From Rickettsiales bacterium (GTDB lineage: Bacteria; Pseudomonadota; Alphaproteobacteria; Rs-D84; CACZYB01), in assembly GCA_031263095.1 (NCBI GenBank), contig JAISGI010000015.1, positions 12,328 through 76,327 on the forward strand: a stretch of 64,000 nucleotides of DNA, read 5' to 3'. Under the pieces are notes generated by a model that saw nothing but the letters and a program-made list of their open reading frames with translations, was not told the origin of the DNA and ran no database searches. Both the position numbers and the translations under genes were made by a program. Positions within the stretch are counted from its first letter, which is position 1, and every line of letters starts with the position of its first letter. Below, in pieces: positions 10,223-60,477 of this stretch.

Positions 10223-10800
10223 ATGACAAGGAACTATAAACGTACGGGGGGGGGCAAAAGGCTAAATACCTAGCGTTTACGCTTCTCCTACTATCAGCCA
10301 ACAACTCTCAATCAGCCAATTATTATACCTGCACAGCTTGCGCCGTGCCCGGTGTCTGCCAAGCCGGAGCAAGCACAGATTTTAATAAGTACAACGCTCC
10401 GCTCACACTTGCCGAGGCTACCGCCGCCATAGGAACACCCGCAACGAACAGGTGGACGCTTGTGGACGAGCAGCCAACCGCATACCAAGTAAAATGCGGC
10501 ACTCTTCCAACCGGAATATACCGTCTTGACGCATACAACTCGGTGGAATCCTACAGCTCGCAGATAGCCGTGCTCGATAAGCCGACGGATTATACCCTTT
10601 GGCTGAACGATAGTCCTACTCCTGGATTGAATGTAAGGATTTATATGGGGACCAATTCTTGCGGCGCTTTCAATGGCTGTAACGGTGAGAACTGCAAATT
10701 TATGATACTTGCGTCCACGAATTCCAGATATACGCCCGGCATAACGCTTGACGACATGAAGCATGCCGCAAGGAATGTCGCCATATATCGGCTTCAATAG
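10223..10800 (+). CDS. phase-variable small secreted Cys-motif protein, family copy A; G9 tract at 10246-10254 leaves it out of frame (ON at 10 G)
   Basis: Leader GTCAAACCAAAGGACAAGACCG-ATG (Shine-Dalgarno plus ATG at 10223). ATG ACA AGG AAC TAT AAA CGT ACG-G9 then hits TAG at 10271 with 9 G. With 10 G it reads MTRNYKRTGGGQKAKYLAFTLLLLSANNSQSANYYTCTACAVPGVCQAGASTDFNKYNAPLTLAEATAAIGTPATNRW...AIYRLQ (the frame of ORF 10345-10800). Confidence 0.8.
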
Positions 10801-12602: not shown

Positions 12603-13200
12603 ATGACAAGGAACTATAAACGTACGGGGGGGGGCAAATAAGTATATAGCTACTGCGCTTCTTCTGGTTTCAGCCAACAACTCTCAATCTGCCAATTATT
12701 ACACCTGTACCGCCTGCACCGTACCTGGAGCATGCCAACCCGGGGCGACAACGGACTGCAGCCGGTACAACGATGTATATGCGACGGGCAATCAAGGCAA
12801 CGCGGACATGGTGGCTGCATGCATAGGTTCGCCCGACAAAAGCAGGTGGCAGCTTGTCGCCAAATACTCGCTGGGCGATACTGCGGGCAATGTTTCCTCC
12901 GGCAGTCTGACGCCCGGAATCTACCGGTTCGACGGCTATTATTCGGACGACAAATACGGCTATGGCATAGTAATATTCGACCACGAGGTCAAGTATGCGT
13001 TCAAAGATTTCATCTCCAACAGCGAATCCTGCTGCAACCGCATAGTAGTCAATGTGAACAACGAAGATGCGCTGACGCATAACGCACCTGGTACGCAAAC
13101 GGCGGACGTAGGAAATTATCAGGTCAAGGCCGTGCCGAACATAACCCTTTCGGATATGATTCGTACTGGCAAAACAGGCGCAATATACAAACTGAACTAG
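12603..13200 (+). CDS. phase-variable family copy B; G9 at 12626-12634 (ON at 8 G)
   Basis: Same leader (GTCAAACCAAAGGAGAAGACCG-ATG). At 9 G translation stops (..GGC AAA TAA). At 8 G it reads MTRNYKRTGGANKYIATALLLVSANNSQSANYYTCTACTVPGACQPGATTDCSRYNDVYATGNQGNADMVAACIGSPDKSRWQLVAK...GAIYKLN, joining ORF 12808-13200. The promoter has an extended -10 (TGGTATAAT) at about 12569. Confidence 0.8.
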
Positions 13201-21006: not shown

Positions 21007-21547
21007 ATGACATATATGAACAAAAAGCGTACGGGGGGGGGCAAATAAGTATTTAGTTATTGCGCTTCTCCTGATTTCGACTAACTCTCAATCTTCAAAT
21101 TACTATACCTGTACTGCCTGCGCCATACCCGGAGCATGTCAGGCCGGGGCAAACGCAGACTTTGACAAGTACAACACTCCACTTACGCTTGCCGAAGCTA
21201 CCGCCGCAATCGGCACGCCCTCAAAATCGAGATGGAGCCTTATAGATGGTGGCCATTTCGTCAACAAGCGCGGTACTCTCTCGCCCGGAGCTTACATGAT
21301 AAGCGGCAATGCCAGCATGTCCGCCGGAGGCTGCACGTCCCAGGTGGCGGTGTTCGACAGGGAAGTTGGCTATAACCTGCTTGCCGACGGCATAACGATA
21401 GACACGAACAACCCCGTGTTCAGCGGCACTACCTGGGGAGTGTATAGTCCAGCGGACTGCTCGGCAGACACGCTTCAGACTCCTGGCTGGAGCAAGGAGG
21501 ACATAACCGCCCAGTCTTTCGGCAGCTATATATACAAACTCCAATAA
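21007..21547 (+). CDS. phase-variable family copy C; G9 at 21033-21041 (ON at 8 G)
   Basis: Leader GTCTAACCAAAGGAGAAAGACGGCA-ATG. At 9 G it stops (AAA TAA). At 8 G it reads MTYMNKKRTGGANKYLVIALLLISTNSQSSNYYTCTACAIPGACQAGANADFDKYNTPLTLAEATAAIGTPSKSRWSLIDGG...GSYIYKLQ. Confidence 0.8.
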
Positions 21548-21565
21548 ATTTCTGTTGCTGCCACC

Positions 21566-21612
21566 CCTGTGGAAAGTCGGCGACAACTTGTCAAGTTGTC
21601 CCGGCTTTCTAT
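21566..21612. repeat. REP-like palindrome with a degenerate right end
   Basis: CCTGTGGaaagtcggcgacaacttgtcaagttgtcccggctttCTATGG. Confidence 0.5.
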
Positions 21613-21642
21613 GGTCTCCTGAACCAAATATCTTATACCCGG

Positions 21643-21752
21643 GCGCAAGAAAGATTGGCGGAGGGCAAAGATTCCGTCTCCGGAATCCAAAAGCGTCTAA
21701 CCAAAGGGCAGAGAGAATCTGCCTATGCCGAACCCGCCAATCTCACTTGCGC
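21643..21752 (-). ncRNA. family 3'UTR hairpin element belonging to copy D, with an extended loop
   Basis: On the minus strand the stem GCGCAAGTGAGATTGGCGG pairs with CCGCCAATCTTTCTTGCGC. The loop carries CCCTTTGGTTAGACGC (anti-leader) plus a small internal hairpin (GGATTCCggagacGGAATC). Confidence 0.5.
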
Positions 21753-21772: not shown

Positions 21773-22358
21773 CTAGTTCAGCCGATAAATCGCGCTGCCA
21801 AGCCTTGTTCCGTAATGGTATATGTCGTCCTCGGCAAGTCCAGGTGTTCTTACGCCCTTGTCTAGGTATCCCGTGACGCGCGTGCTCTCCGTGGTATAGG
21901 TCGCATGGTCGAAGTCTATCATGGTGCACGATTGGTCGGAATATTGGTTGTACAGTTGATACGATATGTCCCTGTCCGCGACCACCACGCGCGAGTCGTA
22001 CATATTGCCACCGGTATAGTTGTCGAAGCGGTATATTCCCGGCGGCAGGGTTCCTCTAGGTTGAGAGTATTGTCCCTCGGCAAGCGCTTCGCCCGATACG
22101 ACCATAGTCCACCTGGCCTTGTCGGGCGTGCCGATGCATGCTGTCGCCTCCTCAAGCGAAAGAACTTTGCGCGGCGGACATTCGGCCGGAGGATTGGCGT
22201 ATTCGCTTACCGCGCCAGCAGAGCAAAATTTCGCGATTGTGCACGCGCTACAGGTGTAGTAATTAGCAGAGTTTGATTTGTTAGTAGATAATAAGAGAAG
22301 CGCAGTAGCTAAGAATAACTTATTTGCCCCCCCCCGTACGCATATCGTTCCTTGTCAT
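21773..22358 (-). CDS. phase-variable family copy D; C9 on the plus strand at 22327-22335 (ON at 8)
   Basis: The reverse strand reads GGTCAAACCAAAGGAGAAGACCG-ATG ACA AGG AAC GAT ATG CGT ACG-G9. At 8 G it gives MTRNDMRTGGANKLFLATALLLLSTNKSNSANYYTCSACTIAKFCSAGA...CIGTPDKARWTMVVSGE...AIYRLN. The promoter has an extended -10 (TGATATAAT). Confidence 0.8.
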
Positions 22359-23299: not shown

Positions 23300-23895
23300 A
23301 TGACAAGGAACTATAAACGTACGGGGGGGGGCAAAAGGCTAAATACCTAGCATTCGCGCTTCTCTTACTATCTGCCAATAACTCTCAATCAGCAAACTAC
23401 TACACCTGCTCGGCATGTGCTGTGCCTGAACTATGCAAAGCAGGCGCAGGCACGGACTTTGACAAGTACAACGCCCCACTCACACTTGCCGAGGCTACCG
23501 CCGCCATAGGAACGCCCGCAAAATCCCGTTGGACGCTTGTCGATTCATTCGAGGAATATGGAAGCAAGCCTGGCACTCTGTCGCCGGGACTATATAGAGT
23601 CGACGCCTCGGGCATCACAAGCGTCGGCTGCCTAAGAATATCGCAAACCGTGGCCATGTCCAAGGATACCGGATACATTATGAGGAGCAGCTCGCTCCCC
23701 GCCGAGGGGAATTGCGCAGGCTGCGCCGGAGTTGTATTCGACAGCAACAATGCAACATACTCGAGCGTTTCATACACGGTAGTGGCTCAAAATAGTACGG
23801 CCTACTCGCAAAGCTACACTCCTGGTATAACCCAAGATGACTTCGCGCCAGCCGATTGCTCCACTCACAAAACGGCGATTTATAGATTAAATTAA
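23300..23895 (+). CDS. phase-variable family copy E; G9 at 23323-23331 (ON at 10 G)
   Basis: Leader GTCAAACCAAAGGAGAAGACCG-ATG. At 9 G it stops at TAG. At 10 G it reads MTRNYKRTGGGQKAKYLAFALLLLSANNSQSANYYTCSACAVPELCKAGAGTDFDKYNAPLTLAEATAAIGTPAKSRWTLVD...TAIYRLN. The promoter has TGTAGTATAAT. Confidence 0.8.
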
Positions 23896-25886: not shown

Positions 25887-26446
25887 ATGAATATGAACGA
25901 AAAGCGTACGGGGGGGGGCGGAAGGCTAAGTATATAGCGACAGCGCTTCTCCTGATAGCCACTAACAACTCTCAATCTGCTAATTATTACACCTGCACCG
26001 CTTGCCCGGTACCGGGAACTTGCCCCGCCGGAAGCGTCAGGGATTGTCCCCTGAACCGCCACACATCTGCCGAAGAAGGCCTTGCCTGCGTCGGCGCGAA
26101 TCCGACATGGACGCTTGTCGATTCCATAAGCGGGTGCGGGCAGTCCGCTCAAAGCAAAAGTGTGCCCCTCCAACCGGGAGTATATAGGATAGAGGCTTGG
26201 CGTGCCGAGGGCTGGGGTTCTACCTTGGTTGCAATCGACCACACCCAAGACGCATTCCTGCAGTCCGACGGTGGAGGGCAGAAGTGGACTCTTGCTAACT
26301 TGGGCGACGCGAACGTATATCATGGAGGCGACGGCGGAGTAGGTTTCAATAGGTGGTTCTGGCATGACGGCCAATTCGCACCCGGCGCGCCTGCATCAAA
26401 CCAAATCCAAACCCCTTGCTCCGCAAGCGTGTATAAGCTGCAATAA
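25887..26446 (+). CDS. phase-variable family copy F; G9 at 25910-25918 (ON at 10 G)
   Basis: Leader GTCTAAACAAAAGGAGAAGACAACG-ATG AAT ATG AAC GAA AAG CGT ACG-G9-CGGAAGGCTAAG. At 10 G it reads MNMNEKRTGGGRKAKYIATALLLIATNNSQSANYYTCTACPVPGTCPAGSVRDCPLNRHTSAEEGLACVGANPTWTLVDS...SVYKLQ. Confidence 0.8.
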
Positions 26447-30000: not shown

Positions 30001-30551
30001 ATGAATAAGAACGTATTACGTACGGGGGGGGGCAAAAGGCTAAATACATAGCATTCGCACTTCTCTTACTATCTGCCAACAACTCTCAATCTTCAAATTA
30101 TTACACTTGTACCGCATGCGCCTTACCAGGGGCTTGTCAGGCCGGAGCCACGCAAGACTGCAAATACAATGCAACCTTGAGCCTAGCAGAAGCGACCGCT
30201 TGCATAAGCGTTCCCGTTCAAGCCGACTGGGAGCTTGTCCGCTCGCAAGGCGATACACAGGAAACTTTCCAGCTCGCCGCGGGAGTATATAGGATAGACG
30301 CGAGAAGAGACGTCGAGACATGCCAATACGGGTACACTCCGACAAGTTATGTATTCGTCCTGGCCGAGCCGATGTACGTTTCAAGCGCCAATGTATGTAC
30401 GAATGGAGCCATAAGGTTTTACAAGTCGGCGCCGCCGGCCACTGAAGTATTCGCCATACACGCTTATTCAACCATATCGACTCCGGGCATAACCGCGGCG
30501 GATTTGTCATACCTTGAAAACGCTTCGCGCAAGTTTTATAAGTTGAAGTAG
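30001..30551 (+). CDS. phase-variable family copy G; G9 at 30024-30032 (ON at 10 G)
   Basis: Leader GTCTAACCAAAGGAGAAGACGACA-ATG. At 10 G it reads MNKNVLRTGGGQKAKYIAFALLLLSANNSQSSNYYTCTACALPGACQAGATQDCKYNATLSLAEATACISVP...KFYKLK. The promoter has TGTGATATAAT. Confidence 0.8.
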
Positions 30552-32201: not shown

Positions 32202-32808
32202 ATGACATATATGAACAAAAAGTGTACGGGGGGGGGCAGGTAAGTATATAGCTTTAGCGCTTCTCCTAATATCGACTCAATCACAATCTTCAAACTACTA
32301 TACTTGCACAGCTTGCGCATTGCCCGGTGCCTGCCAAGCGGGTGCGGCGCAAGACTGCAAATATAATGCAACCTTGAGCCTAGCCGAAGCGACCGCTTGC
32401 ATAGGAGTCCCGGAATTGAACAGATGGAAAGTCTATACCGGCGGCCACGTCTTGACGCCGGGCATATATAGGCACGACATAGAGAAGAACGCGGTTTCGC
32501 ACAGCTTGGGCCTTGAGGATGGAAGCGCGGTGTTCACCGTGGTGCAGAATTCCTATTTAGCCTGCTTCATCGGCAACGGCACATACGAAGGCACTAGCGG
32601 AATATCGAACTGCGGGTGCCAGGCCCGAACCGATGGCTCGAACGAGCCTTTTAACTATCAGCAGGCAGGCATACCGAAGTTCGCGGCGGGCGCGGCGCTT
32701 AGGACGGCGATACTCACTCCCGGCCTGACAAGCGAAACCCTGACCAAAGGAGAGACTTTGCCCACGTGGTGCAGATATACCCTGTACAAGCTTGACAGCG
32801 ATAGCTAG
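32202..32808 (+). CDS. phase-variable family copy H; G9 at 32228-32236 (ON at 8 G)
   Basis: Leader GTCTAACCAAAGGAGAAAGACGACA-ATG ACA TAT ATG AAC AAA AAG TGT ACG-G9. At 8 G it reads MTYMNKKCTGGAGKYIALALLLISTQSQSSNYYTCTACALPGACQAGAAQDCKYNATLSLAEATACIGVPELNRW...YTLYKLDSDS. Confidence 0.8.
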
Positions 32809-32885: not shown

Positions 32886-33422
32886 TTATAACCGGTTCAT
32901 AACTTTGTTCACGAAATCTATCCATTGCGTTCGTGGATGCATTACGCCGCTCTTCATCATGTTCAAAAGCTCGGTATAGTCGGCCCATTTTACTTCGTCA
33001 ACCTCGGCGTCGTTGAAGCTGATGTTGTCGAGCGCAAGGTTCTTGCGTATCACGAACAGGTTATAGAACTGGTTTTCCTTGAACTCACCGATAGTCCTGC
33101 GGTCGCGGAAAGTCTTGGTGAACAGGAAGTCGGACACGCGGATGTCCCGGGGCAGTTGGAGCCCGATCTCCTCGTTGTTTTCCCGCATTATGGTGGAGAG
33201 CGCATCTTCGCCCGCGCTTATGTGCGAGGCAAGCGATATATCCCACAGTCCCGGATACTTTTCCTTCGTCATCGAACGTTTCTGCAAAAGCACATGGTTC
33301 TTCTGGTTTATGATGGCGACGATTGCGGCCTCGTGCCAGTCGCCGTCCCTGTGCACTTCGTCCCGGGTCTTTATTTTTCCGGTCGGAATGCCGTCTTCGT
33401 CCAATATGCTTATGTATTCCAT
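32886..33422 (-). CDS. NUDIX hydrolase (IDI-like)
   Basis: The true start is MEYISILDEDG... at 33422. Its ATG shares the A of the fabG TGA stop. The ORF-track start at 33704 would overlap fabG. It carries a Nudix box (GEDALSTIMRENNEEIG). Confidence 0.7.
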   Translation of the reverse strand: MEYISILDEDGIPTGKIKTRDEVHRDGDWHEAAIVAIINQKNHVLLQKRSMTKEKYPGLWDISLASHISAGEDALSTIMRENNEEIGLQLPRDIRVSDFLFTKTFRDRRTIGEFKENQFYNLFVIRKNLALDNISFNDAEVDEVKWADYTELLNMMKSGVMHPRTQWIDFVNKVMNRL

Positions 33423-34159
33423 CAAACCCTCAACATCCCACCGTTCACGTGTAAAGTCTGCCCAGTGATGTACGAGGCTTCGTCGCTTGCCAAATAAGCA
33501 GCGGCCGAGGCGACATCCGAGGGAGTGCCGAAGCGTTTCAAGGGAATCTGCGCCATCATGGAGGTCTTGACATCTTCGGAGAGCACGTCCGTCATAGCGG
33601 TCTCGATGAACCCGGGCGCAATGCAGTTCGCGGTTATTCCGCGGCTTGCGACCTCGGCCGCCAAGGCCTTGGTAAGCGAGGTCAGCCCACCCTTCGAGGC
33701 GCAATAGTTCGCTTGGCCCGGGTTGCCCATAAACCCGACAATCGAGGTTATGTTGATTATCCGCCCGAACCGCTGCTTCATCATGGGGCCGACAGCCTCG
33801 CGCATAAGCCGGAACGAGGCGGTCAGGTTCACGTCGATTACGCGCAAAAAGTCTTCGTCTTTCATCCGCATCATAAGCGTGTCTGCGGTCAAGCCCGCAT
33901 TGTTGACAAGGATGTCAAGCCGCCCGGCTTTTTCAATCGACTCCTTGATAAGACGCGCCGGCTCGTCGGCAATGGAAAGGTCGGCCGGTATCGCGAACAC
34001 CCGCCCGCCAAGCTCGCCCGCAAGCTTCTCAAGCACATCCGCCTTGCGCCCGGTTATAACTACCGCCGCGCCAAGTGAATGGAGCGTCCGGGCAATCGCC
34101 TCGCCAATCCCGCCGGTGGCGCCGGTAATCAGGGCAGTTTTTCCGCTTAAATCGAACAT
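33422..34159 (-). CDS. fabG: 3-oxoacyl-[ACP] reductase
   Basis: SDR with TGATGGIG and YCASK motifs; 245 aa. Confidence 0.85.
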   Translation of the reverse strand: MFDLSGKTALITGATGGIGEAIARTLHSLGAAVVITGRKADVLEKLAGELGGRVFAIPADLSIADEPARLIKESIEKAGRLDILVNNAGLTADTLMMRMKDEDFLRVIDVNLTASFRLMREAVGPMMKQRFGRIINITSIVGFMGNPGQANYCASKGGLTSLTKALAAEVASRGITANCIAPGFIETAMTDVLSEDVKTSMMAQIPLKRFGTPSDVASAAAYLASDEASYITGQTLHVNGGMLRV

Positions 34160-34735: not shown

Positions 34736-35638
34736 TCAAGTATTTTTCAGGGTTTCGACCCCTGCCTTGTCCTCGACGGAAGCACAGCTTGCCGCATCCG
34801 TACAACGCTTGACAAGGCCGCCTAGCACGGCTCCACTGCCAAGCTCGAAGAATTCGGAAACTCCCGCACCCACCATGAACCCGACGCATTCCGTGAATCG
34901 CACGCCGCTGGTCATCTGCTGGGTAAGAAGAGCCTTTATGTCCGAGGCTTTCGCAACCGCCGCGGTTCGGTTCGAGACGAAAGGTATCGAGGGTTCGCCT
35001 ACATCGACCGAAGACAGGAGAACTTCCATTTTTTCGCGCGCGGGCTGCATAAGCGGACAGTGCGCAGGCACGGACACGGGCAGTATAACACACTTTTTCG
35101 CCCCTGCGTCTTTAAGCATGGCTTCCGCCGCTACGACCGACTCCTTGACGCCCGAGATTACGATTTGTCCCGGACAGTTGTCGTTCGCGACCCATACCTT
35201 GTCGAGCTTCGAGCATACGTCCGCCACCACATTCGCGCCAAGGCCGATTACCGCCATCATACCGCCAAGTCCTGCCGGAACCGCCGCTGCCATCGCCTCG
35301 CCACGCGCGCGCAGAAGGCGGGCGCCGTCCGCAAGAGTTATCGCGCCAGCGGCGACCAGCGCCGAATATTCGCCAAGCGAATGCCCGCATACATAGTCGG
35401 CCATAGGCGAACCTGCCGCACGATATGCCGCCACGCTCGCCGCCAATAACGCGGGTTGAGTGTTCTGCGTCTGGTTCAGCGCCTCCATATCCTCGCCCCA
35501 AATAACGGCAGACAAGGAAAATCCCAAAGCTTCGTCGACCTCCTCGAATACCGCCCGCGCTTCGGGAAATTCGGACACAAGCTCTCGCCCCATACCAAGC
35601 TTTTGCGAACCCTGTCCGGGAAATAGGAATGCTCTCAT
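34736..35638 (-). CDS. fabD: malonyl-CoA-ACP transacylase
   Basis: An AAGAGG Shine-Dalgarno site precedes the ATG at 35638 (MRAFLFPGQGSQ...GHSLGEYSAL). Confidence 0.85.
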   Translation of the reverse strand: MRAFLFPGQGSQKLGMGRELVSEFPEARAVFEEVDEALGFSLSAVIWGEDMEALNQTQNTQPALLAASVAAYRAAGSPMADYVCGHSLGEYSALVAAGAITLADGARLLRARGEAMAAAVPAGLGGMMAVIGLGANVVADVCSKLDKVWVANDNCPGQIVISGVKESVVAAEAMLKDAGAKKCVILPVSVPAHCPLMQPAREKMEVLLSSVDVGEPSIPFVSNRTAAVAKASDIKALLTQQMTSGVRFTECVGFMVGAGVSEFFELGSGAVLGGLVKRCTDAASCASVEDKAGVETLKNT

Positions 35639-35651
35639 TATACAACCTCTT

Positions 35652-36917
35652 TTATAGATATTCATTATTGTTCATATAAGGCCTGATTTTCTCCGGCAGT
35701 CGTACGCGCCCATCCTCGGTCTGATGGTTCTCGATGAACTGCGCCAATATGCGCGGCGTAGCAATGCCGGTATTATTCAAAGTAAAGCAGTGCCGCACCT
35801 TGTTCGTCCCGTTCTCGCGATAGCGAAGATTCGCCCGCCTCGCCTGCCACTCGGTAAGATTCGAGCAGGAATGCGTCTCGCGATAGCGGTTCTCCGACGG
35901 CATCCAGGTCTCGAGATCGTTCATCTTGTACTTGCCCGCGCCCATGTCCCCGGTACAGCACTCGACCACTTGGTAAGGAAGCTCGAGGTCTGCCAAAACC
36001 TCCTCCGCGCACGACAGCAGCACGCCGTACCACTTCTTTGATTCCTCAAGGTCGTTCTTGCAGATTACGTACTGCTCGACCTTCATAAACTGGTGCACAC
36101 GGAACAGTCCGCGCACGTCCTTTCCGGCCGAGCCCGCCTCGCGCCTGAAACAAGGAGAATATCCGGCATACAGCAGGGGCAGTTGTGCCTCCTCGAGTAT
36201 CTCGCTCGAATGTAGCGAGGTCAGCACGACTTCGGCCGTACCGGAAAGGTAAGTATCGTCCTTTTCCAGATAATATACCTCCTCGCGCCCCGTGGGAAAG
36301 TGCCCGGTGCCGTACAACGCGGTTTCACGCACCATAGAGGGCACGGTTATCATGGTGAAGCCCTTGGCGGTCAGCTTGTCCATCATGTACGCATGCAGGG
36401 CTATCTCAAGCCGAGATAACGCGCCCTTTAACGCGACCGAACGACTCCCACACACATTCGGAATCCGCTTGAAGTCGGCCCAGTTGTTCATTTCGGCAAG
36501 CTCCCAGTGGGCTTTCGGCGCAAAGCCGAATTCCCGTGGTTTGCCTACTTGCCGTACGACCACGTTTTCCGAGTCGTCCTTTCCAACCGGCACATCCGGC
36601 GCAGGAATATTGGGAACAAGCCACATAAGCTGCTCGAATTCGGCGCCGCTTGCCTTGCTGTTAGACTCAAGCTTGGATATTTCCTCGCCAAGCTCTTTGG
36701 ATTTGGCCACGGCCGCGGTTTTCTCGCCAGCGCCAAGCTTGGGGATAGACTCGGAAATCGCGTTCTTCTCCGCGCGTAGGTTCTGAAGCCTGGTGTCAGC
36801 CTCGCGAAGCTCGGCGTCCAGCTGTAAAAGCCGGTCTAGGTTCAAATCGACCCGCTTGTCCGCGATGGCTTTTTTGACGGCATCGGGATTTTCCCGAATG
36901 AATTTTATGTCAAGCAT
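35652..36917 (-). CDS. serS: seryl-tRNA synthetase
   Basis: N-terminal coiled-coil plus class II motifs (FRREAGSAG, GTGLAxxR-like). Confidence 0.9.
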   Translation of the reverse strand: MLDIKFIRENPDAVKKAIADKRVDLNLDRLLQLDAELREADTRLQNLRAEKNAISESIPKLGAGEKTAAVAKSKELGEEISKLESNSKASGAEFEQLMWLVPNIPAPDVPVGKDDSENVVVRQVGKPREFGFAPKAHWELAEMNNWADFKRIPNVCGSRSVALKGALSRLEIALHAYMMDKLTAKGFTMITVPSMVRETALYGTGHFPTGREEVYYLEKDDTYLSGTAEVVLTSLHSSEILEEAQLPLLYAGYSPCFRREAGSAGKDVRGLFRVHQFMKVEQYVICKNDLEESKKWYGVLLSCAEEVLADLELPYQVVECCTGDMGAGKYKMNDLETWMPSENRYRETHSCSNLTEWQARRANLRYRENGTNKVRHCFTLNNTGIATPRILAQFIENHQTEDGRVRLPEKIRPYMNNNEYL

Positions 36918-38371: not shown

Positions 38372-38445
38372 AAAAAATCCCTGCGGGCTTTTTTAGTTGG
38401 AAGTTTGAGAAAAAAGGCCGGGGAAACCCTGGCCTTTTTTCGATT
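38372..38445. terminator. two terminator hairpins (rho 3' end and the 3' end of 38460..39020)
   Basis: aaaaaATCCCTGCGGGCTtttttag and gaaaaaaGGCCGGGGaaaCCCTGGCCttttttcg. Confidence 0.6.
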
Positions 38446-38459
38446 TTATCCAAGATTGT

Positions 38460-39020
38460 TTAATTCAGCTTGTACAAATACACCATGCCGGAAGTCCTGT
38501 CCATATCGGAAAGTGTGAGGCCGGGTGTGGCCATCCTTCCGCCGTTGGGGTTATTTGCGTACATTTGTGCTCCGTAAACCAAAACATTCTCTGCAGATCC
38601 CATATAAGGCGATTTGAAGAATACAAGGTCGGTGCAAGCATTGTTCAAACACCCTCCGGCATTCAACAGCGAATATATACGCACAGAGGCAGGCTGGTTC
38701 AATACCACTATGTTGGACGAGTAACTATTCCCGGCTACGTAGGCGTCTATGCGATAGACTCCAGGTGCGTAAAGGTTATCCGCTGAAGCGCTTATGCCAT
38801 TGCCGGGCGAAGAAGTTTGGGCGACGACCTGCCACCTCGATTTTTCCGGCGTTCCTATTGCTGCTGTCGCTTCTTCAAGCGTCAATACAGCATTGTACCT
38901 GCAATCTTGGGTGGCGCCGGATTGGCAGGCACCGGGCACGGCGCACGCCGAACAGGAATAATAGTTCGCCGCACCGGCTGGCATTGCCATAAGCATCACC
39001 ATTGCTAGTAGTTTTTTCAT
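38460..39020 (-). CDS. family copy I with no homopolymer tract: constitutive-type member with a standard signal peptide
   Basis: MKKLLAMVMLMAMPAGA-ANYYSCSACAVPGACQSGATQDCRYNAVLTLEEATAAIGTPEKSRWQVV...PGVYRIDAY...PGLTLSDMDRTSGMVYLYKLN. Shine-Dalgarno site AAGGAGG-ACTGA-ATG. It has all the family motifs but a different, uninterrupted leader. Confidence 0.85.
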   Translation of the reverse strand: MKKLLAMVMLMAMPAGAANYYSCSACAVPGACQSGATQDCRYNAVLTLEEATAAIGTPEKSRWQVVAQTSSPGNGISASADNLYAPGVYRIDAYVAGNSYSSNIVVLNQPASVRIYSLLNAGGCLNNACTDLVFFKSPYMGSAENVLVYGAQMYANNPNGGRMATPGLTLSDMDRTSGMVYLYKLN

Positions 39021-39210
39021 TCAGTCCTCCTTTGGTTGTGGCTGAAAGTCGCACCCTCCACGGGGCTATGTGCAATTGCTCGCAAAAGGCGCGAACCTTG
39101 CCGGCGAATCTCTTCGTCGGCGGAAGTATTATAGCACAAAATCGGGACGCGGACAACCGGAAAAGAATTTCTTGCAATTTTCGGCCGTGCGCCTTATATT
39201 GGCCTGCAAC

Positions 39211-39299
39211 GGAAGGTTGGCAGAGCGGTAATGCAGCGGATTGCTAATCCGTGACGGGGTTAAATCCGTCCAGAGGTTCGAGTCCTCTACCTTCCGCCA
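39211..39299 (+). tRNA. tRNA-Ser (anticodon GCU), type II with a long variable arm
   Basis: Acceptor GGAAGGT/ACCTTCC, anticodon loop TTGCTAA, variable arm GACGGggttaaatCCGTC, T-loop GGTTCGAGTCC, and discriminator G followed by an encoded CCA. Confidence 0.85.
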
Positions 39300-39348: not shown

Positions 39349-40014
39349 CTATTTTATTTTTGCAGCCCTGCGCAGCACCCATCCGGATTCTCTCTTCCAT
39401 ATTACGCCTCGTCGGATGACGGACGCCGGGTTTCCCGCAATCGCGGTGTGTTTTTCCGAAAAGCTCTTTGTGACCACTGCACCGGCGCCGACTATGGTGC
39501 CGTCGGGTATGGAAGCATTTTTCGTGAATATTGCGGCTTGCCCTATCCAGCAGTGCTCTCCTATACGCAGCGGATTCCGCGGATTGCTTATTATTTCACC
39601 GGACGCCGCCTCTATTATTGCGTGTCCTTCCGACGGGCGCAGGGTTGCGCTGTTTATCATACAGTCTTTCCCAATCTCGCACCGACATTCCTCCGACATT
39701 CGGATGAACATCGGGCCCGAGCTCAATCCCTCGTCGATGGTCAATGTCTGCTTCTCTCCGTCCGACATAAGAATGCGGAGCTCGTTTATGTGGAGTGGAC
39801 TGCGGATTTCGATTTTGCAGTCATCGGCAAGGCATTCGATACTGCAATTTTTCGCATTCGTCGGAAAGAAAAACTTCACAAGATTGTTTTTCCCGCCAAG
39901 GGTTATGGCAAAGCCCGGGACTTTTTCTCCATGGGCAAGCTCTCGCTCGTTGCCATTCTCGACTACGATTATCTTGTTATCGGTTCCCGTATCTGACACA
40001 GACGATTCTGCCAC
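39349..40014 (-). CDS. hexapeptide-repeat (LbH) acetyltransferase. A C9 contingency tract (plus-strand G9 at 40042-40050) lies upstream; at 10 C an N-terminal extension from the ATG at 40151 joins in frame
   Basis: The core ORF begins at the GTG at 40014 and contains LbH repeats (IGEHCWIGQAAIFTKNASIPDGTIVGAGAVV). From the ATG at 40151 the reading frame (MEIRKALVNLICIFVPNRGLRHRIRTICAKSAIYPPP...) runs through the C-tract. With 9 C it terminates at 39969 (60 aa). With 10 C it continues as ...PPPTFPDKSNTDVAESSVS... into the acetyltransferase. Confidence 0.7.
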   Translation of the reverse strand: MAESSVSDTGTDNKIIVVENGNERELAHGEKVPGFAITLGGKNNLVKFFFPTNAKNCSIECLADDCKIEIRSPLHINELRILMSDGEKQTLTIDEGLSSGPMFIRMSEECRCEIGKDCMINSATLRPSEGHAIIEAASGEIISNPRNPLRIGEHCWIGQAAIFTKNASIPDGTIVGAGAVVTKSFSEKHTAIAGNPASVIRRGVIWKRESGWVLRRAAKIK

Positions 40015-40152
40015 ATCCGTATTGGATTTATCAGGAAACGTGGGGGGGGGTAAATCGCTGATTTTGCACAGATTGTCCGTATTCTATGGCGCAAGCCTCT
40101 GTTTGGGACGAAAATGCATATAAGATTGACGAGAGCCTTGCGGATTTCCATT

Positions 40153-40857
40153 TTACATATCCGCCCGGGTCTTCACCACCTTGTCAATCAAGCCAAAGCC
40201 TTGGGCTTCCTCGGCGCTCATGAAGTTGTCCCGCTCGACCGCTGCGGCGACCTCGGCAATCGGCCGCCCGGTGTGGAATGCATAAAGCGAATTGAGCTTC
40301 TCCCTGGTCTTCAAAATCTCCCGCGCGTGAATCTCGATGTCCGTGGCCTGACCTTGGTACCCGCCAAGCGGCTGGTGTATCATTATGCGCGAGTTGGTAA
40401 GCGCGAATCGCTTGCCCTTCGCACCGCCGGCGAGCAGAAACGAGCCCATCGAGCACGCCTGGCCAAGACAAAGCGTGGCCACATCCGGCTTGACGTACTG
40501 CATGGTGTCGTATATTGCAAGACCCGATGTCACTACACCGCCTGGCGAGTTTATGTACATGAATATGTCCTTGTCCGGGTTCTCCGACTCGAGAAACACA
40601 AGCTGCGCCACGACGAGCGAGGCCGAGGCATCGTTTATCTCACCGTTGATGAAGATTATACGCTCCTTGAGTAGGCGCGAGAATATGTCGAAACTCCGCT
40701 CGCCGCGGGCCGTCTGCTCGATTACATAGGGTATGAAATTCATTGAATCATCCATTTGAGGCTCCTTTTTTAAGAAGAGTCTAACATACTTTTTAGCCGT
40801 TGTAAAGCCTGTGGAAAGCCAAACGGTTATCCTCGCTTTCCACAGGAAAAATAACAA
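40153..40857 (-). CDS. clpP: ATP-dependent Clp protease proteolytic subunit
   Basis: Ser-His-Asp triad context ([14 protein letters not shown]...MIHQP). Confidence 0.9.
40808..40846. repeat. REP-like palindrome plus GGACTAGAATTATTACAAT motif (40861-40879, minus orientation)
   Basis: CCTGTGGaaagccaaacggttatcctcgctttCCACAGG. The motif's TAG is the stop codon of copy J. Confidence 0.55.
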
Positions 40858-40878: not shown

Positions 40879-41439
40879 CTAGTCCAGCTTATATATTGCT
40901 GCTTTGCCTTCCGAGCCTATGTCGTCACTTGTTATCCCTGGAGTAGTGATTACAACCGACGGTGCGTTATCTCTGACAGCCTGCTGTATATACCAATTAG
41001 GGTCATTGGGCTTGCGCGTCCATATCCACCCGCATAATAAACCGTCGCATTCAATTGTATGTTCCAAGTATCCTGTACGATTGTCGGGAATAACAGCCAC
41101 TCCGGAGCGTTTGTTGTTTGCAGCGCGTATGACGTCGAACCTATACACCCCTGGCACAAGCTCGACCGACTGATGATCTCCGGCAAATGCACTTTGCTTC
41201 ACAAGACTCCACCTTGATTTCTCGGGAGTACCTATGCAGCGTGTTGCCTCCTCAAACGAAAGTATGTTTTCTGTATAGGCGCAATCCTTTGTCATTCCTG
41301 CCTGACAAGCCCCTGGTACAGAACAATTGGTACAGGTATAGTAGTTTGATGATTGAGAGTTGTTGGCTGAAATCAGGAGAAGCGCAATAGCTAAATACTT
41401 ATTTGCCCCCCCCCGTACGCTTTTTGTTCATAATACTCA
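40879..41439 (-). CDS. phase-variable family copy J; C9 at 41405-41413 (ON at 8)
   Basis: The reverse strand reads GTCTAACCAAAGGATAAAGACATTA-ATG AGT ATT ATG AAC AAA AAG CGT ACG-G9. At 8 it gives MSIMNKKRTGGANKYLAIALLLISANNSQSSNYYTCTNCSVPGACQAGMTKDCAYTENILSFEEATRCIGTPEKSRWSLV...AAIYKLD. The promoter is TTGACA, 18-nt spacer, TATAGT. Confidence 0.8.
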
Positions 41440-41500
41440 TTAATGTCTTTATCCTTTGGTTAGACAATTATACTATATCATCATTTATTATTGTTGTCAA

Positions 41501-41550
41501 CCTGTGGTAAGCGGGAGATAACTTGAAAAGTTATCCTCGCTTTCCACAGG
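41501..41550. repeat. REP-like palindrome
   Basis: CCTGTGGtaagcgggagataacttgaaaagttatcctcgctttCCACAGG. Confidence 0.6.
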
Positions 41551-45814: not shown

Positions 45815-46416
45815 ATGACATATATGAACAAAGTACGTACGGGGGGGGGCAAAAGGCTAAATACATAGCATTCGCACTTCTCTTACTATCTGCCAATAAC
45901 TCTCAATCATCCAATTATTATACCTGTACCGCATGCACAATTCCTGGCGCATGCCAGGCTGGAGCGACGCAAGAGTGCACATACAACGTAATGCTTACTA
46001 AGGCAAGCGCGATAGGTTGTTTCGGCTCGCCCTCCAAGGAAAGTTGGACGCTTGTGGACAAGGTAACAAGCGGCAACAGGTCCGGCACCTTGCAAAAGGG
46101 AATATATAGGTTCGAGGCTATAATCCCCGGTCATCCCGGCCATGCAAGCACAGCCGCAGTGGTCTTCGACCACCCGGTCGGCTATATAATGTACAGGCAA
46201 GCCTCAACCGGAACGCCGGGTTGGCCTAACATCACATGCGACGCATGCCCTGGAATCCTTGTGGATTTGAACAGTCAGACATACTCCGGTGCGTCGCTGT
46301 TCTTCGTGGCAAACGGCGCTGGTATCGGGACAGGCTCGAATGTTCCAAATATAACAACCGAAGCCGACATGGATTCCGCTTCAGGAGTGCACGCGGCTAT
46401 ATACAAGCTGAACTAG
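45815..46416 (+). CDS. phase-variable family copy K; G9 at 45841-45849 (ON at 10 G)
   Basis: Leader GTCAACCAAAGGAGAAGACAATA-ATG ACA TAT ATG AAC AAA GTA CGT ACG-G9. At 10 G it reads MTYMNKVRTGGGQKAKYIAFALLLLSANNSQSSNYYTCTACTIPGACQAGATQECTYNVMLTKASAIGCFGSPSKESWTLVD...AAIYKLN. The promoter has TGGTATATT. Confidence 0.8.
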
Positions 46417-51315: not shown

Positions 51316-51883
51316 ATGAATAAGAACATACTGCGTACGGGGGGGGGCAAATAAGTATATAGCTACTGCGCTTCTCCTAATATCGGCTCAAACTCAATCT
51401 TCAAATTATTACACCTGCACAGCTTGCCCGCCTTTGCGCGACGCACCTGCCGGCTCGACCAGCTGCAAGCCGACCGGCGCGACTTGCCCAAAAAACCGCT
51501 TCCTGACCCTGGCCGAAGTTGAAAGTTGCCTCGGCGACATAGCGCTTGCCGAATGGGGCGAGGCGATCTTCACCGCGAGTATGAATAATCCGTCGCAAAC
51601 TCCGACAACTGTACAGCCGGGAATCTATAGGGCCGATACGTTCTACAATAATACATCGCTGGATGCCTCCGCGATATTCGTCGCGGACAAGCCCTTGGGT
51701 CTAAGCTTCCAGCATTCCTCGGACAATTTCTCCGTCCGCATAGATGCGGATAACGCGACGTATGCAAACCCTACCTCAAGCCTTGGCAACTGTAGCGTTT
51801 GCTCGCAAAACAGAACCGTAGAAACGCCGAACGTCGTGAACTATCCATCCGGCGCCAACAAAGGCTATCTGTACAGGCTCTAG
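51316..51883 (+). CDS. phase-variable family copy L; G9 at 51339-51347 (ON at 8 G)
   Basis: Leader GTCTAACCAAAGGAGAAAGACG-ATG AAT AAG AAC ATA CTG CGT ACG-G9. At 8 G it reads MNKNILRTGGANKYIATALLLISAQTQSSNYYTCTACPPLRDAPAGSTSCKPTGATCPKNRFLTLAEVESCLG...GYLYRL. It is preceded by ACTAGAATTATTACAAT (51233-51249) and a promoter with TATTATAT. Its stop overlaps the 3' end of the lipoprotein gene on the opposite strand. Confidence 0.8.
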
Positions 51884-54026: not shown

Positions 54027-54561
54027 TCAGTTCAGACGATATATGGCGCCATACATTCCCGCGGCCTGGTCGGACAGATTGGGAGTGTGCATATTGAAGT
54101 CATACATGAGATAAGTCTTGCCGTCGGTGGCGTCGTTCGTTATCCTGGCAGTAGGGTTGACTCCTGCCGTAGGGTCGGAATCTCCCACAAAATATTCGGA
54201 CGCGCGGTCGACTATCACTATGCCAGACGACCTTGTGTTGTTCGCAACCGCGTCTAGCCTATAGATTCCCGCCTGTACTTGGCCGGTTTTCTGTTCGGCT
54301 CCATTAGCTCTGTCTATAAGAGTCCACGCAGACTCGGCTGGGGAACCGACGCACCGCGCGACCTCGCCCGGATAGCCCCAATTGGTAAGCAGCCTGTTAT
54401 AGGTACAGTCGGATACGGCCCCGGCTTGGCACGCCCCCGGTACAGCACAAGCTGTACAAGTATAATAATTTGATGATTGAGAGTTGTTGGTAGATAATAG
54501 GAGAAGCGCTAAAGCTAAATACTTATTTGCCCCCCCCCGTACGTTTATAGTTCCTTGTCAT
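54027..54561 (-). CDS. phase-variable family copy M; C9 at 54530-54538 (ON at 8)
   Basis: The reverse strand reads GTCTAACCAAAGGAGAAGACAG-ATG ACA AGG AAC TAT AAA CGT ACG-G9. At 8 it gives MTRNYKRTGGANKYLALALLLLSTNNSQSSNYYTCTACAVPGACQAGAVSDCTYNRLLTNWGYPGEVARCVGSPAESAWTLID...GAIYRLN. The promoter is TTGACA, 17-nt spacer, TATTAT. Confidence 0.8.
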
Positions 54562-55991: not shown

Positions 55992-56586
55992 TTAGTCAAG
56001 CTTGTATATTGCGACAGTAGGGTCTATCGTGTATATCATGTCCGAGACAGTTATACCGGGGACATATGATACAGTGCTTGGCTTTTGGGTACTACTATTC
56101 GCATTGATCGTGTGGTACCTGCCACCACAGTTGTTGAAGCGTTGCACTGTTGTCCAGTCTTCGGACGAGTTATCTATGCATACATGTGCTCCGCTGTCTA
56201 CGAATTTACCGCTCCAGGTGCCATAGTCGGTGTCTTGGGCAAGCACTACAATCCGTGATGTCCAGCTTGCCTCGGTATGCCACAAATCTACGCGATAGAT
56301 TCCGGGCGAAAGCATGCCAAGCTTTTGCGGCCCCCGAGGACCCTCTTCTTTTTTAACAAGCGTCCATCTGGATTTAGCGGGCGTACCTATACAGCGGACA
56401 GCTTCTTCCAAAGACAAAGTTTTGTCATAAGTGCAATCCTTGGTCGCACCAACTTGACACGCACCCGGCACTGCACAGGTCGAGCATGTGTAATAATTTG
56501 CTGAATAGGATTGGTTAGCTGATATTAGGAGAAGCGCAACAGCTATATACTTATTTGCCCCCCCCCATACGTATATTATTCCTCAT
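55992..56586 (-). CDS. phase-variable family copy N; C9 at 56558-56566 (ON at 8)
   Basis: The reverse strand reads GTCAAACAAAAGGAGAAGACCGATA-ATG AGG AAT AAT ATA CGT ATG-G9. At 8 it gives MRNNIRMGGANKYIAVALLLISANQSYSANYYTCSTCAVPGACQVGATKDCTYDKTLSLEEAVRCIGTPAKSRWTLV...VAIYKLD. The promoter is TTGACG, 17-nt spacer, TATAGT. Confidence 0.8.
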
Positions 56587-57535: not shown

Positions 57536-58119
57536 ATGATTATTATGAACAAAAAGCGCACGGGGGGGGGCGGCGGCGGAATGCTAAGTATAGAGCAACT
57601 GCGCGTCTCTTACTATCAGCTAACAACTCTCAATCATCAAATTATTATACCTGTACAAACTGCGCTGTACCCGGCGCTTGCCAAGCTGGCGCCACGGCGG
57701 ACTGTACTTATGGCCAATTCCTATCCCTTGAGGGAGCGGCGCGTTGTTTAGGAACTCCAGCGAAAACCAGATGGACGGAAGTCTATAGGTGTACAAACAA
57801 CTGCTCTTCTTCTGCAGGAGGTTTTCCAAAAGGAGTCTACAGGTTCGATCTCAAGAACTCGAAAACCGTATATTCACGCGTCTTTATATCGTTATATGAT
57901 ACGAAGCTATACAGCTTCCAGCGCGCCTGCAACGGGGTTGAAGACCGAGCGTGCGTGGGAATGCTGTGCGGCCCATCACAGACGTTCGACGAATGCAACC
58001 GATGGGCAGGAATGAACGAAAATTCAACAGCGCCGCAGATATTCACTCCGGGCATAACGGCCGATGACATAACGAACCCAAGTGCCGGGTCAATTGTGGT
58101 GTATAGGCTCGAGGGATAG
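57536..58119 (+). CDS. phase-variable family copy O; G9 at 57562-57570 followed by (CGG)3 (ON at 10 G)
   Basis: Leader GTCTAATTGAAAGGAGAAGACGAAA-ATG ATT ATT ATG AAC AAA AAG CGC ACG-G9-CGGCGGCGG. At 9 G it yields a 71-aa out-of-frame product (ORF 57536-57751). At 10 G it reads MIIMNKKRTGGGRRRNAKYRATARLLLSANNSQSSNYYTCTNCAVPGACQAGATADCTYGQFLSLEGAARCLGTPAKTRWTEV...IVVYRLEG. Confidence 0.8.
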
Positions 58120-59909: not shown

Positions 59910-60477
59910 TCAGTTTAGTTTATACAGGGCAGCGACTGTATCCTCGCTATATGCCGCGATTGCGGTTTGCAGGGTTATGCCCGGCGTCCATATTCCTTGA
60001 TTGGCCGAGGAAACAACACGGTCATTACCTGGACCGGGCGCTCCGCCAGTATATCCTGCGTTCGGAAGCGCGATGGCTCCGCTTCCAGCCCAATACTGTA
60101 CATTTGAAGTCTTGTCCAAGACTATGACGCCGGAAGAAAACCGAGGATTTCCACCATTTTTCAGGAATCCGTCAAGCCTATAGACGCCCGGGCCGACGGA
60201 TGTTCCCCCGCCGTCGCCAGAGGTGTATTTCTGGACTAGGTTCCAGCGGCCGGCGGCCGGAGTACCTATGCATGCCGTCGCCTCCTCGAGGCTTGACATC
60301 TTGTTCATTGTGCATACAGGTTTGACTGCTGTACCAGCAGGGCAAGTTTCGGAAATATCGCACGCACTACAAGTGTAATAATTTGAAGATTGAGAGTTGT
60401 TAGCAGATAATAGGAGAAGCGCAATAGCTAAATACTTATTTGCCCCCCCCCGTACGTACTGTGTTCATAACAGTCAT
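59910..60477 (-). CDS. phase-variable family copy P; C9 at 60443-60451 (ON at 8)
   Basis: The reverse strand reads GTCTAACCAAAGGAGAAGACATA-ATG ACT GTT ATG AAC ACA GTA CGT ACG-G9. At 8 it gives MTVMNTVRTGGANKYLAIALLLLSANNSQSSNYYTCSACDISETCPAGTAVKPVCTMNKMSSLEEATACIGTPAAGRWNLV...AALYKLN. The promoter is TTGACT, 17-nt spacer, TATATAAT. Confidence 0.8.

What the first reader, a model, noticed from the sequence alone, without database searches (positions are those of the whole stretch)
38460..39020. One family member lacks the G tract and has a conventional signal peptide: a candidate constitutive or ancestral copy next to tRNA-Ser
Copy I (MKKLLAMVMLMAMPAGA-ANYYSCSACAVPGACQSGATQDC...LYKLN) carries every family motif. 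It is translated from a normal AAGGAGG-ATG with no homopolymer. Its 5' region differs from the shared GTCTAACCAAAGG leader.

It sits within 200 bp of tRNA-Ser(GCU) at 39211-39299 and the phase-variable acetyltransferase. It could be the always-on family member, or the donor from which the leader-fused cassettes were derived.
Basis: seen in the sequence. Interest (0 to 1): 0.6.

Follow-up and report, generated by a model that had tools for sequence, protein, structure and literature searches.

The report
Switch-free copy of phase-variable gene family
This intact gene is an ordinary-looking member of a large family of secreted proteins whose other copies each carry a slippery run of nine Gs that switches them on and off; it is a real non-switching copy, but it is not unique and cannot be shown to be the family's ancestor.

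Summary
Window 38460-39020 (-) encodes an intact 186-aa protein with every invariant family residue, an AAAGGAGG-N5-ATG start, a conventional signal peptide and no repeat longer than A6. It lies 190 bp from tRNA-Ser(GCU).

All 15 other paralogs in the window carry a G9 tract between the ATG and the signal peptide. All 15 are out of frame as assembled.

Three corrections:
- Copy I keeps the core of the shared leader (AACCAAAGGAGG).
- It is not unique. The same MAG (NCBI 'Rickettsiales bacterium', LBL52) has at least two more tract-less members, P0002 and P0082. One tract-bearing copy is apparently in frame at G10 (P0079).
- Nothing marks a tRNA-linked island.

'Always on' is best restated as 'not repeat-switched'. 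The gene has its own sigma-70 promoter, a roughly 100-nt structured 5' UTR and a terminator. Expression was not tested.

'Donor or ancestor' is not supported. Trees are star-like, copy I is nested rather than basal, its GC3 matches its paralogs, and synonymous sites are scrambled. However, a relative (Rho 80% identical) carries a family gene at the same fabG-fabD-serS-rho position, so the locus may be old.

The protein is a beta-sandwich with no Pfam, PDB or BFVD match.

The parts
38460..39020 (-). Copy I coding sequence (186 aa including stop). Identical to NCBI MAG protein LBL52_01755.
38970..39020 (-). Conventional Sec signal peptide MKKLLAMVMLMAMPAGA. Predicted SPase I cleavage is AGA|ANYY. 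There is no lipobox and no homopolymer above A6.
   Evidence: The cleavage site is inferred from the -3/-1 rule and from alignment with the mature N-terminus (A/S)NYY of all paralogs.
39026..39037 (-). AACCAAAGGAGG. The Shine-Dalgarno site (GGAGG 39030-39026, 5 nt before the ATG) is embedded in the conserved core of the family leader.
39021..39121 (-). Approximately 100-nt 5' UTR (start inferred from the promoter). Predicted to be structured, with a weak hairpin overlapping the Shine-Dalgarno site. No Rfam match.
39128..39156 (-). Sigma-70-like promoter TTGTCC-17-TATAAT with a TG extended -10.
38409..38441 (.). GC-rich hairpin flanked by an A-run and a T-run. Serves as a bidirectional terminator shared by rho (+) and copy I (-).
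   Evidence: Use on the minus strand is by inspection.
39211..39299 (+). tRNA-Ser(GCU), divergent from copy I.
39349..40151 (-). Hexapeptide acetyltransferase split by a C9 tract (40042-40050). The ATG at 40151 abuts the clpP stop. C10 would restore the frame.
10223..10800 (+). Paralog with G9 at 10246-10254. Off; needs n=1 mod 3.
12603..13200 (+). Paralog with G9 at 12626-12634. Off; needs n=2 mod 3.
21007..21547 (+). Paralog with G9 at 21033-21041. Off; needs n=2 mod 3.
21773..22358 (-). Paralog with C9 at 22327-22335. Off; needs n=2 mod 3.
23300..23895 (+). Paralog with G9 at 23323-23331. Off; needs n=1 mod 3.
25887..26446 (+). Paralog with G9 at 25910-25918. Off; needs n=1 mod 3.
30001..30551 (+). 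Paralog with G9 at 30024-30032. Off; needs n=1 mod 3.
32202..32808 (+). Paralog with G9 at 32228-32236. Off; needs n=2 mod 3.
40879..41440 (-). Paralog with C9 at 41406-41414. Off; needs n=2 mod 3. Flanked by identical 21-nt direct repeats at 40826 and 41530.
45815..46416 (+). Paralog with G9 at 45841-45849. Off; needs n=1 mod 3.
51316..51883 (+). Paralog with G9 at 51339-51347. Off; needs n=2 mod 3.
54027..54561 (-). Paralog with C9 at 54530-54538. Off; needs n=2 mod 3.
55992..56586 (-). Paralog with C9 at 56558-56566. Off; needs n=2 mod 3.
57536..58119 (+). Paralog with G9 at 57562-57570. Off; needs n=1 mod 3.
59910..60477 (-). Paralog with C9 at 60443-60451. Off; needs n=2 mod 3.

Best explanation
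Copy I is a functional member of a large paralogous family of small secreted proteins that is not switched by a repeat.

The protein has a Cys-rich N-terminus and a beta-sandwich body. The family has at least 30 loci in an uncultured anaerobic alphaproteobacterium.

Most members are contingency genes. A G9 tract sits between the start codon and the signal peptide, so a +1 or -1 slippage turns each copy on or off independently. This is inferred from their anatomy.

Copy I lacks any such repeat. It is transcribed from its own sigma-70 promoter through a roughly 100-nt leader and translated from a strong Shine-Dalgarno site. It is exported by Sec and cleaved at AGA|ANYY. Its presence therefore does not depend on tract length.

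It is one of at least three such copies in the genome. It probably occupies an old family locus beside rho.

- Shown: anatomy, frames, family membership, conservation, synteny.
- Inferred: export, expression, and a host- or ligand-binding function.
For: - The ORF is intact and has all invariant family residues.
- There is no simple sequence repeat in the locus.
- It has a promoter, a Shine-Dalgarno site and a terminator.
- All 15 tract-bearing copies in the window are out of frame at G9. Each keeps a 166-189-codon open frame that G10 (6 copies) or G8 (9 copies) would join to the ATG.
- Three further copies on another contig show the same arrangement.
- One copy elsewhere is in frame with an implied G10 (P0079). 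This indicates real differences in DNA tract length.
- P0002 and P0082 are further tract-less members. P0002 shares copy I's SD region and signal-peptide type.
- Homologues in other genomes (P0015, P0016, P0033, P0034, P0042, P0046, P0057) have conventional signal peptides.
- L089 has Rho 80%, SerS 72%, FabD 59% and FabG 67% identical to the window, and carries a family gene in the same fabG-fabD-serS-rho neighbourhood.
- The AF2 model has pLDDT 80.7 and pTM 0.80 and shows a beta-sandwich with a low-confidence variable segment.
Against: - There are no expression data.
- The structured 5' UTR may impose conditional control.
- In L089 both rho and the family gene are oriented differently from the window. 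Copy I and P0034 are only 23% identical over 78 aa.
- About one intergenic gap in three or four in the window holds a family gene (my estimate from the ORF map). Shared adjacency to rho could therefore be coincidence.
- The L089 gene has a C9 tract in its promoter spacer, so the locus is not repeat-free in the relative.
- The signal peptide was judged by eye, not with a predictor.
- No anchor or secretion route beyond Sec is evident.
Confidence: 0.6

Rival explanations
1. Copy I is a secondarily locked-on derivative. A tract-bearing copy had its 5' module (promoter, leader, tract, signal peptide) replaced by recombination with a tract-less paralog such as P0002.
For: - Copy I retains the AACCAAAGGAGG leader core typical of tract-type copies.
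- Its signal peptide and SD region resemble P0002, while its mature domain does not group with P0002.
- In trees its mature domain is nested among tract-bearing copies.
- DNA identity across the family falls from 62-69% in the 5' module to 32-37% in the 3' half. That pattern fits modular evolution.
Against: - There is no remnant of CGTAC-G9.
- The same ACAACCAAAGG leader occurs in a tract-less homologue from another metagenome (L006). The leader core is therefore not specific to tract-type copies.
- No tree node involving copy I has support.
- Synonymous sites are saturated, so any such event is ancient.
Confidence: 0.15
2. Copy I is conditionally regulated rather than constitutive. Its long structured 5' UTR would act as a translational or transcriptional control element, so it is a differently regulated member and not the 'always-on' one.
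For: - The copy I UTR folds at -38.3 kcal/mol (z -2.2), with the Shine-Dalgarno site partly inside a hairpin.
- The P0002 UTR folds with z -2.9, with CCUCC pairing to the GGAGG of the Shine-Dalgarno site.
- Both tract-less genes have 100-140-nt leaders, against about 20-25 nt in tract-type copies.
Against: - There is no Rfam match.
- The two UTRs share no evident sequence beyond the SD region.
- The z-scores are modest, and the hairpins over the Shine-Dalgarno site are short.
Confidence: 0.2
3. Copy I is an unexpressed relic and its intact appearance is incidental.
For: Only the lack of expression data, and GC3 lower than in housekeeping genes.
Against: - The 186-codon ORF is open and keeps all 12 invariant residues despite saturated synonymous divergence. 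That implies purifying selection.
- The promoter, Shine-Dalgarno site and terminator are intact.
Confidence: 0.05

Closest known systems
Neisseria Opa proteins (about 11 opa loci, each with CTCTT repeats in the signal-peptide-coding region). From general knowledge.
   Same: - It is a multi-locus family of exported proteins with hypervariable regions.
- The slippery repeat lies inside the 5' coding region for the signal peptide.
- Each locus switches independently by frameshift.
- The 5' module is far better conserved than the body of the gene.
   Different: - The repeat here is a G9 homopolymer, not a pentamer.
- The protein is a roughly 170-aa beta-sandwich with no Pfam hit, not an 8-stranded outer-membrane barrel.
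- The family here includes tract-less members such as copy I.
- The copies are scattered singly between housekeeping genes.
Poly-G/C contingency genes of Campylobacter jejuni and Helicobacter pylori, and poly-G pmp genes of Chlamydia pneumoniae. Literature pointers: PMC6321876, PMC4488443.
   Same: - G/C tracts of about 9 nt lie in the 5' coding region of surface-related genes, including sugar-modifying transferases such as the acetyltransferase here.
- Some paralogs carry tracts and others do not.
   Different: - Here 22 of the 23 tracts seen are exactly 9 nt. The 23rd is inferred from a protein as G10.
- Every coding-region tract read as DNA is out of frame.
- A single family accounts for most tracts.
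- The lineage is an uncultured alphaproteobacterium. Its best Rho match in the GTDB species representatives is 70%.
Promoter-spacer homopolymer switches (Neisseria opc/porA, Bordetella fim, Haemophilus hif). From general knowledge.
   Same: The L089 family gene beside rho has C9 inside TTGACT-N15-TAATGT. An unrelated gene on L002 has G9 inside TTGACA-N15-TAAAAT.
   Different: Copy I's own promoter spacer contains no tract.
PKD/Ig-like and Ephrin_rec_like (Cys-rich) domains
   Same: - The family profile gives weak partial hits to PKD repeat proteins (query positions about 46-106).
- The relative P0015 has Ephrin_rec_like repeats in front of the family domain.
- The CxxC...G motif of the mature N-terminus resembles one such repeat.
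   Different: - Copy I and its paralogs hit no Pfam or NCBIfam model at E<=1.
- There is no Foldseek match in PDB or BFVD (best E 0.05-0.3, TM below 0.3).
- There is no PDB sequence match.

Membership tests
SSR (homopolymeric-tract) phase-variable contingency gene | A hypermutable simple repeat (G/C of 7-8 nt or more) in the ORF or promoter | tested here: not met
   Copy I locus 38400-39210 has no tandem repeat, and its longest run is A6/T6. The feature is met by all 15 paralogs in the window.
SSR (homopolymeric-tract) phase-variable contingency gene | A +1 or -1 change in the repeat restores or destroys a full-length ORF | tested here: not met
   Not applicable to copy I, whose ORF is continuous. 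For the paralogs, G10 (6 copies) or G8 (9 copies) joins the ATG to a 166-189-codon frame.
SSR (homopolymeric-tract) phase-variable contingency gene | Observed tract-length polymorphism within or between populations | tested here: inconclusive
   The only evidence is indirect. P0079 is in frame, implying G10, while 18 other family tracts are G9. Reads were not available.
Sec/SPase I-exported protein | N-terminal positive n-region, hydrophobic h-region, small residues at -3/-1, and no lipobox Cys | tested here: met
   MKK-LLAMVMLMAMP-AGA|A was judged by inspection. The cleavage point aligns with the conserved mature start (A/S)NYY of all paralogs. No signal-peptide predictor was available.
PKD / Ig-like domain (Pfam PF18911, PF22352) | Match to the Pfam model above the gathering score | tested here: not met
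   No Pfam hit at E<=1 for copy I or a paralog. There are only weak profile cross-hits to PKD-repeat proteins.
Ephrin_rec_like Cys-rich repeat (PF07699) | Match to the Pfam model | tested here: not met
   Copy I has none. The relative P0015 matches at E 1.2e-6.
tRNA-linked genomic island | Integrase nearby, direct repeat of the tRNA 3' end, and composition unlike the flanks | tested here: not met
   - The neighbours are FabG, FabD, SerS, Rho, ClpP, SurA, LptD and LptF/G.
- No meaningful tRNA-end repeat was found.
- GC is flat across the region.
Neisseria Opa family | Eight-stranded outer-membrane beta-barrel with a pentameric CTCTT repeat | tested here: not met
   The protein is a beta-sandwich of about 170 aa with a homopolymer tract. 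This is an analogy of mechanism only.

The most novel reading that the evidence does not exclude
The near-uniform 9-nt tract length may be the designed resting state of this lineage's switches.

- All 16 tracts in the window are 9 nt, as are 4 of 4 on a second contig and 3 of 3 in two related genomes from independent assemblies.
- Every coding-region tract read as DNA is out of frame.

Low-level expression of tract-bearing copies would then come from RNA-polymerase slippage on a 9-nt G:C hybrid. That would yield both +1 and -1 transcripts and would serve both frame classes.

Under this reading the tract-less copies (copy I, P0002, P0082) are the only genetically 'on' members and form an invariant core of the system.
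Probability: 0.1. Interest if true: 0.7.

Novelty: new member of a known kind. Interest (0 to 1): 0.4.

Why it matters
Copy I gives a built-in control for an undescribed gene family. The family has at least 30 copies and looks phase-variable. It belongs to a deep-branching, uncultured, anaerobic alphaproteobacterium.

Copy I is a member whose expression cannot depend on tract length. Its locus can be compared across relatives. It offers a clean sequence for structural or binding studies of a fold with no known match.

On its own, a tract-less paralog within a contingency family is expected from better-studied systems and is not surprising. The wider family and its uniform G9 tracts are the more interesting objects.

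Tried and rejected
**Public collection scans**
- Scans of genome contigs and metagenome contigs with the NYYTC[TS][AN]C motif found no relatives.
- A leader DNA pattern scan of metagenomes gave two chance hits with no family gene.
- A viral-contig scan could not run, because the alignment had no stretch conserved enough.

**Contig look-ups**
- Exact-protein look-ups for P0001, P0007 and P0013 were not on record. No independent assembly of the window's tracts could be inspected.

**Synteny in GTDB**
- A Rho-based synteny search of the GTDB species representatives found nothing closer than 70% identity. None had serS or clpP linkage or a family gene.

**Structure and family libraries**
- Foldseek against PDB and BFVD gave nothing significant.
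- Pfam, NCBIfam, PADLOC, a PDB sequence search and Rfam gave no match for copy I or its UTR.

**Ideas rejected**
- Compositional distinctness of copy I. Its GC3 matches its paralogs.
- A tRNA-linked island.
- Copy I as sister of P0002 in the mature domain.
- A literature trace of the samples or MAG. None was found.

Full report
**Observation**

It is 100% identical to the NCBI MAG protein LBL52_01755 from a 'Rickettsiales bacterium' on a 105-kb contig.

tblastn with this protein finds 15 further paralogs in the window. In every one, a run of exactly nine G (or C on the other strand) lies 17-26 nt after an ATG. That ATG follows a near-consensus promoter and the leader GTC(T/A)AACCAAAGGAGAAGAC.

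Copy I has AAAGGAGG-ACTGA-ATG and then MKKLLAMVMLMAMPAGA|ANYY. No tandem repeat occurs in 38400-39210, and no homopolymer exceeds A6. Copy I keeps all 12 invariant columns of a 17-member alignment.

tRNA-Ser(GCU) is at 39211-39299. The neighbouring hexapeptide acetyltransferase is split by a C9 tract. An ATG at 40151, abutting the clpP stop, would be joined to the hexapeptide ORF by C10.

Copy I contains the exact leader core AACCAAAGG. That 9-mer has 14 matches in the window against 0.47 expected, and 12 of them sit in tract-type copies.

**Anatomy of the family**

Downstream of each G9 tract, one frame stays open for 166-189 codons. It encodes a signal-peptide h-region, a conserved mature start (A/S)NYYTC(T/S)AC, a Cys-rich segment, a conserved W...PG.YR.D core, a hypervariable stretch and a conserved TPGI...IYKL(N/D) end.

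At G9, all 15 copies are out of frame with their ATG. Six copies ('QKAKY' class) need n=1 mod 3, that is G10. Nine copies ('NKY' class) need n=2 mod 3, that is G8.

G/C runs in the window have lengths 1-5 and then only 9, which occurs 16 times against 0.7 expected.

Mean pairwise DNA identity is 62-69% in the promoter, leader and signal-peptide module. It falls to 32-37% in the 3' half. Third codon positions differ freely even in the conserved N-terminus. The copies are therefore old, and the tract and its flanks are held by selection.

**The family elsewhere in the genome**

A second contig of the same MAG (L002) has three more G9 copies. It also has a G9 tract inside a promoter spacer of an unrelated gene.

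The exhaustive profile search returned 67 hits. Twenty-one of them are N-terminally truncated ORFs either traced to LBL52 contigs or matching the window itself. The family therefore has at least about 30 loci.

One of these, P0079 (LBL52_04475), reads MTRNKIRTGGGQKAKY... in frame. That implies G10, an 'on' copy (inferred from the protein). This fits ordinary DNA-level slipped-strand phase variation.

**Copy I is not unique**

P0002 (LBL52_00195, locus L001) has MKKNFCIITMLAILPVGAGA|ANYY and the SD region TAACTAAAGGAGGAGTGAATG. It has a 140-nt structured leader and no tract.

P0082 (LBL52_01100) is a third tract-less member. It has a conventional signal peptide and CPAGYYC-type repeats.

P0002's best BLASTP hit is copy I. 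Copy I's own best hit is c56555, with P0002 a near-tie second. Their mature domains are about 38-42% identical and do not group in trees.

**Is copy I basal, or the donor?**

An NJ tree of the 17 sequences is star-like (30-47% identity). Copy I falls inside it.

Adding 13 more LBL52 copies and 15 homologues from other genomes gives the same picture. Copy I is nested beside P0008 without support, and outgroups interleave with the paralogs. The only strong clade joins c57571 with the foreign proteins P0024 and P0041 (97%).

Copy I's GC3 is 0.56. That lies within the family range of 0.45-0.63 and below housekeeping genes at 0.69-0.77.

So copy I is neither a recent derivative nor demonstrably ancestral. 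The donor idea has no support.

**What favours an old origin**

Complete homologues in other MAGs and metagenomes carry conventional signal peptides. These are P0015 (LBO78), P0016, P0026, P0033, P0034, P0042, P0046/P0070 (LBI17) and P0057.

At the DNA level, L003 and L006 have no G/C run of 7 or more. L006 even has the leader ACAACCAAAGGGAGG, the same 11-mer as copy I.

Most tellingly, L089 is an ENA scaffold whose Rho, SerS, FabD and FabG are 80, 72, 59 and 67% identical to the window's. It has the order fabG-fabD-serS-(orf)-rho-[family gene P0034]. This mirrors fabG (33422-34159), fabD (34736-35665), serS, rho and copy I in the window.

Four caveats apply:
- rho and the family gene are each in the opposite orientation in L089.
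- Copy I and P0034 are only 23% identical over 78 aa.
- Roughly one intergenic gap in three or four of the window holds a family gene (my estimate from the ORF map), so coincidence is not negligible.
- P0034 has a C9 tract in its promoter spacer (TTGACT-N15-TAATGT).

A further relative (L088) has a C9 tract between the ATG and the signal peptide of its family gene, again out of frame. Tract-based control is therefore not confined to LBL52.

**Regulation and export of copy I**

A sigma-70-like promoter, TTGTCC-17-TATAAT with TG, lies at 39156-39128. This implies a roughly 100-nt leader.

The leader folds at -38.3 kcal/mol (z -2.2), with a short hairpin over part of the Shine-Dalgarno site. No Rfam family matches.

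A GC-rich hairpin at 38409-38441, flanked by A and T runs, can terminate both rho and copy I.

Export by Sec with cleavage at AGA|A is inferred from the -3/-1 rule and from alignment with the paralogs. There is no lipobox.

**What the protein is**

- There is no Pfam, NCBIfam or PADLOC hit.
- AlphaFold2 with 39 sequences gives pLDDT 80.7 and pTM 0.80. The model is a beta-sandwich with a low-confidence variable segment.
- Foldseek finds nothing significant in PDB or BFVD. A profile search of PDB sequences finds nothing.
- In other genomes, the roughly 140-aa domain is the C-terminus of longer proteins with Cys-rich Ephrin_rec_like repeats or coiled coils.
- Weak partial hits to PKD repeats suggest an Ig-like relationship.

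A ligand- or host-binding role is an inference from the secretion signal, the hypervariable region and the contingency-type control.

**tRNA-Ser and genomic context**

The flanking genes are housekeeping: DnaG, ParE/GyrB, PGI, FabG/D, SerS, Rho, ClpP, SurA, LptD, LptF/G, NrdD and MiaB-like. There is no integrase and no tRNA-end repeat. Composition is flat across the region. The tRNA proximity appears incidental.

The organism is a Gram-negative anaerobe (LptD, NrdD). It has no close relative among the GTDB species representatives, where the best Rho match is 70%.

**Verdict**

The finding is real and correctly described. It is an ordinary feature of a contingency-gene family: a member without the switch.

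- 'Always on' should be read as 'not repeat-switched'.
- 'Ancestral donor' is unsupported, although the tract-less architecture, and possibly the locus beside rho, are old.
- The wider family, its scale and the uniform 9-nt tracts deserve more attention than copy I itself.

Noticed in passing
window, all 16 G/C tracts (10246, 12626, 21033, 22327, 23323, 25910, 30024, 32228, 40042, 41406, 45841, 51339, 54530, 56558, 57562, 60443); L002 25, 1866, 4856, 6253; L088 2770; L089 9931, 15503: Every G/C run longer than 5 nt is exactly 9 nt. That is 23 of 23 across three independent assemblies. Every coding-region tract is out of frame. The only exception is inferred from a protein (P0079, G10). This could be a mutational attractor, selection for the off state, an assembly consensus effect, or transcriptional slippage.
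   Followed up: partly
window 23947, 26507, 40826, 41530 (exact); 6106, 54620(-), 54649, 60553, 20925, 10130(-), 32859 (near): The 21-nt element GTTATCCTCGCTTTCCACAGG recurs at the boundaries of tract-type copies. Eleven of 16 hits lie within 125 nt of a copy, while shuffles give 0-5 hits. Identical direct copies flank the copy at 40879-41520, and palindromic pairs occur (54620/54649, 21563-21620). None lies next to copy I. It may be a REP-like element or a cassette-boundary element.
   Followed up: partly
window 39349-40151 (-), tract 40042-40050: The hexapeptide O-acetyltransferase is split by C9. Its ATG at 40151 abuts the clpP stop codon, which suggests co-transcription with clpP. C10 would restore a roughly 267-aa protein.
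   Followed up: yes
window 21693-21707 (+): An orphan GTCTAACCAAAGG leader has no tract or family ORF downstream. It is probably the remnant of a deleted or rearranged copy.
   Followed up: no
L002 6253-6261: A G9 tract lies inside a promoter spacer (TTGACA-N15-TAAAAT) upstream of an unrelated 186-aa ORF with no Pfam hit. The genome therefore also uses promoter-type homopolymer switches.
   Followed up: partly
L089 9931-9939 and 15503-15521: In the relative, the family gene beside rho has C9 in its promoter spacer. A C9A10 compound tract sits between nusA and infB.
   Followed up: partly
L088 2770-2778: A family homologue from another sample (P0027 gene) has a C9 tract between its ATG and signal peptide. 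It is out of frame and needs C8 or C11. The sequence context is unrelated to the LBL52 cassette, which suggests convergent or very old use of the same trick.
   Followed up: partly
window 57536-58119: This tract-type copy groups with proteins from other metagenomes (P0024, P0041) at 97% bootstrap, closer than to any paralog in its own genome. At least some family lineages therefore predate this species.
   Followed up: partly
window, tract-type copies: There are two frame classes. After G9, the sequence CAAAAGGCT (QKAKY) needs +1, and CAAATAAGTAT (NKY) needs -1. At G9 both terminate within a few codons (TAG or TAA).
   Followed up: yes
L001 1-30 and 3268-3741: P0002 is flanked by two more family copies. 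The Logan contig ends inside the shared leader, so assemblies break at the repeated 5' module.
   Followed up: no
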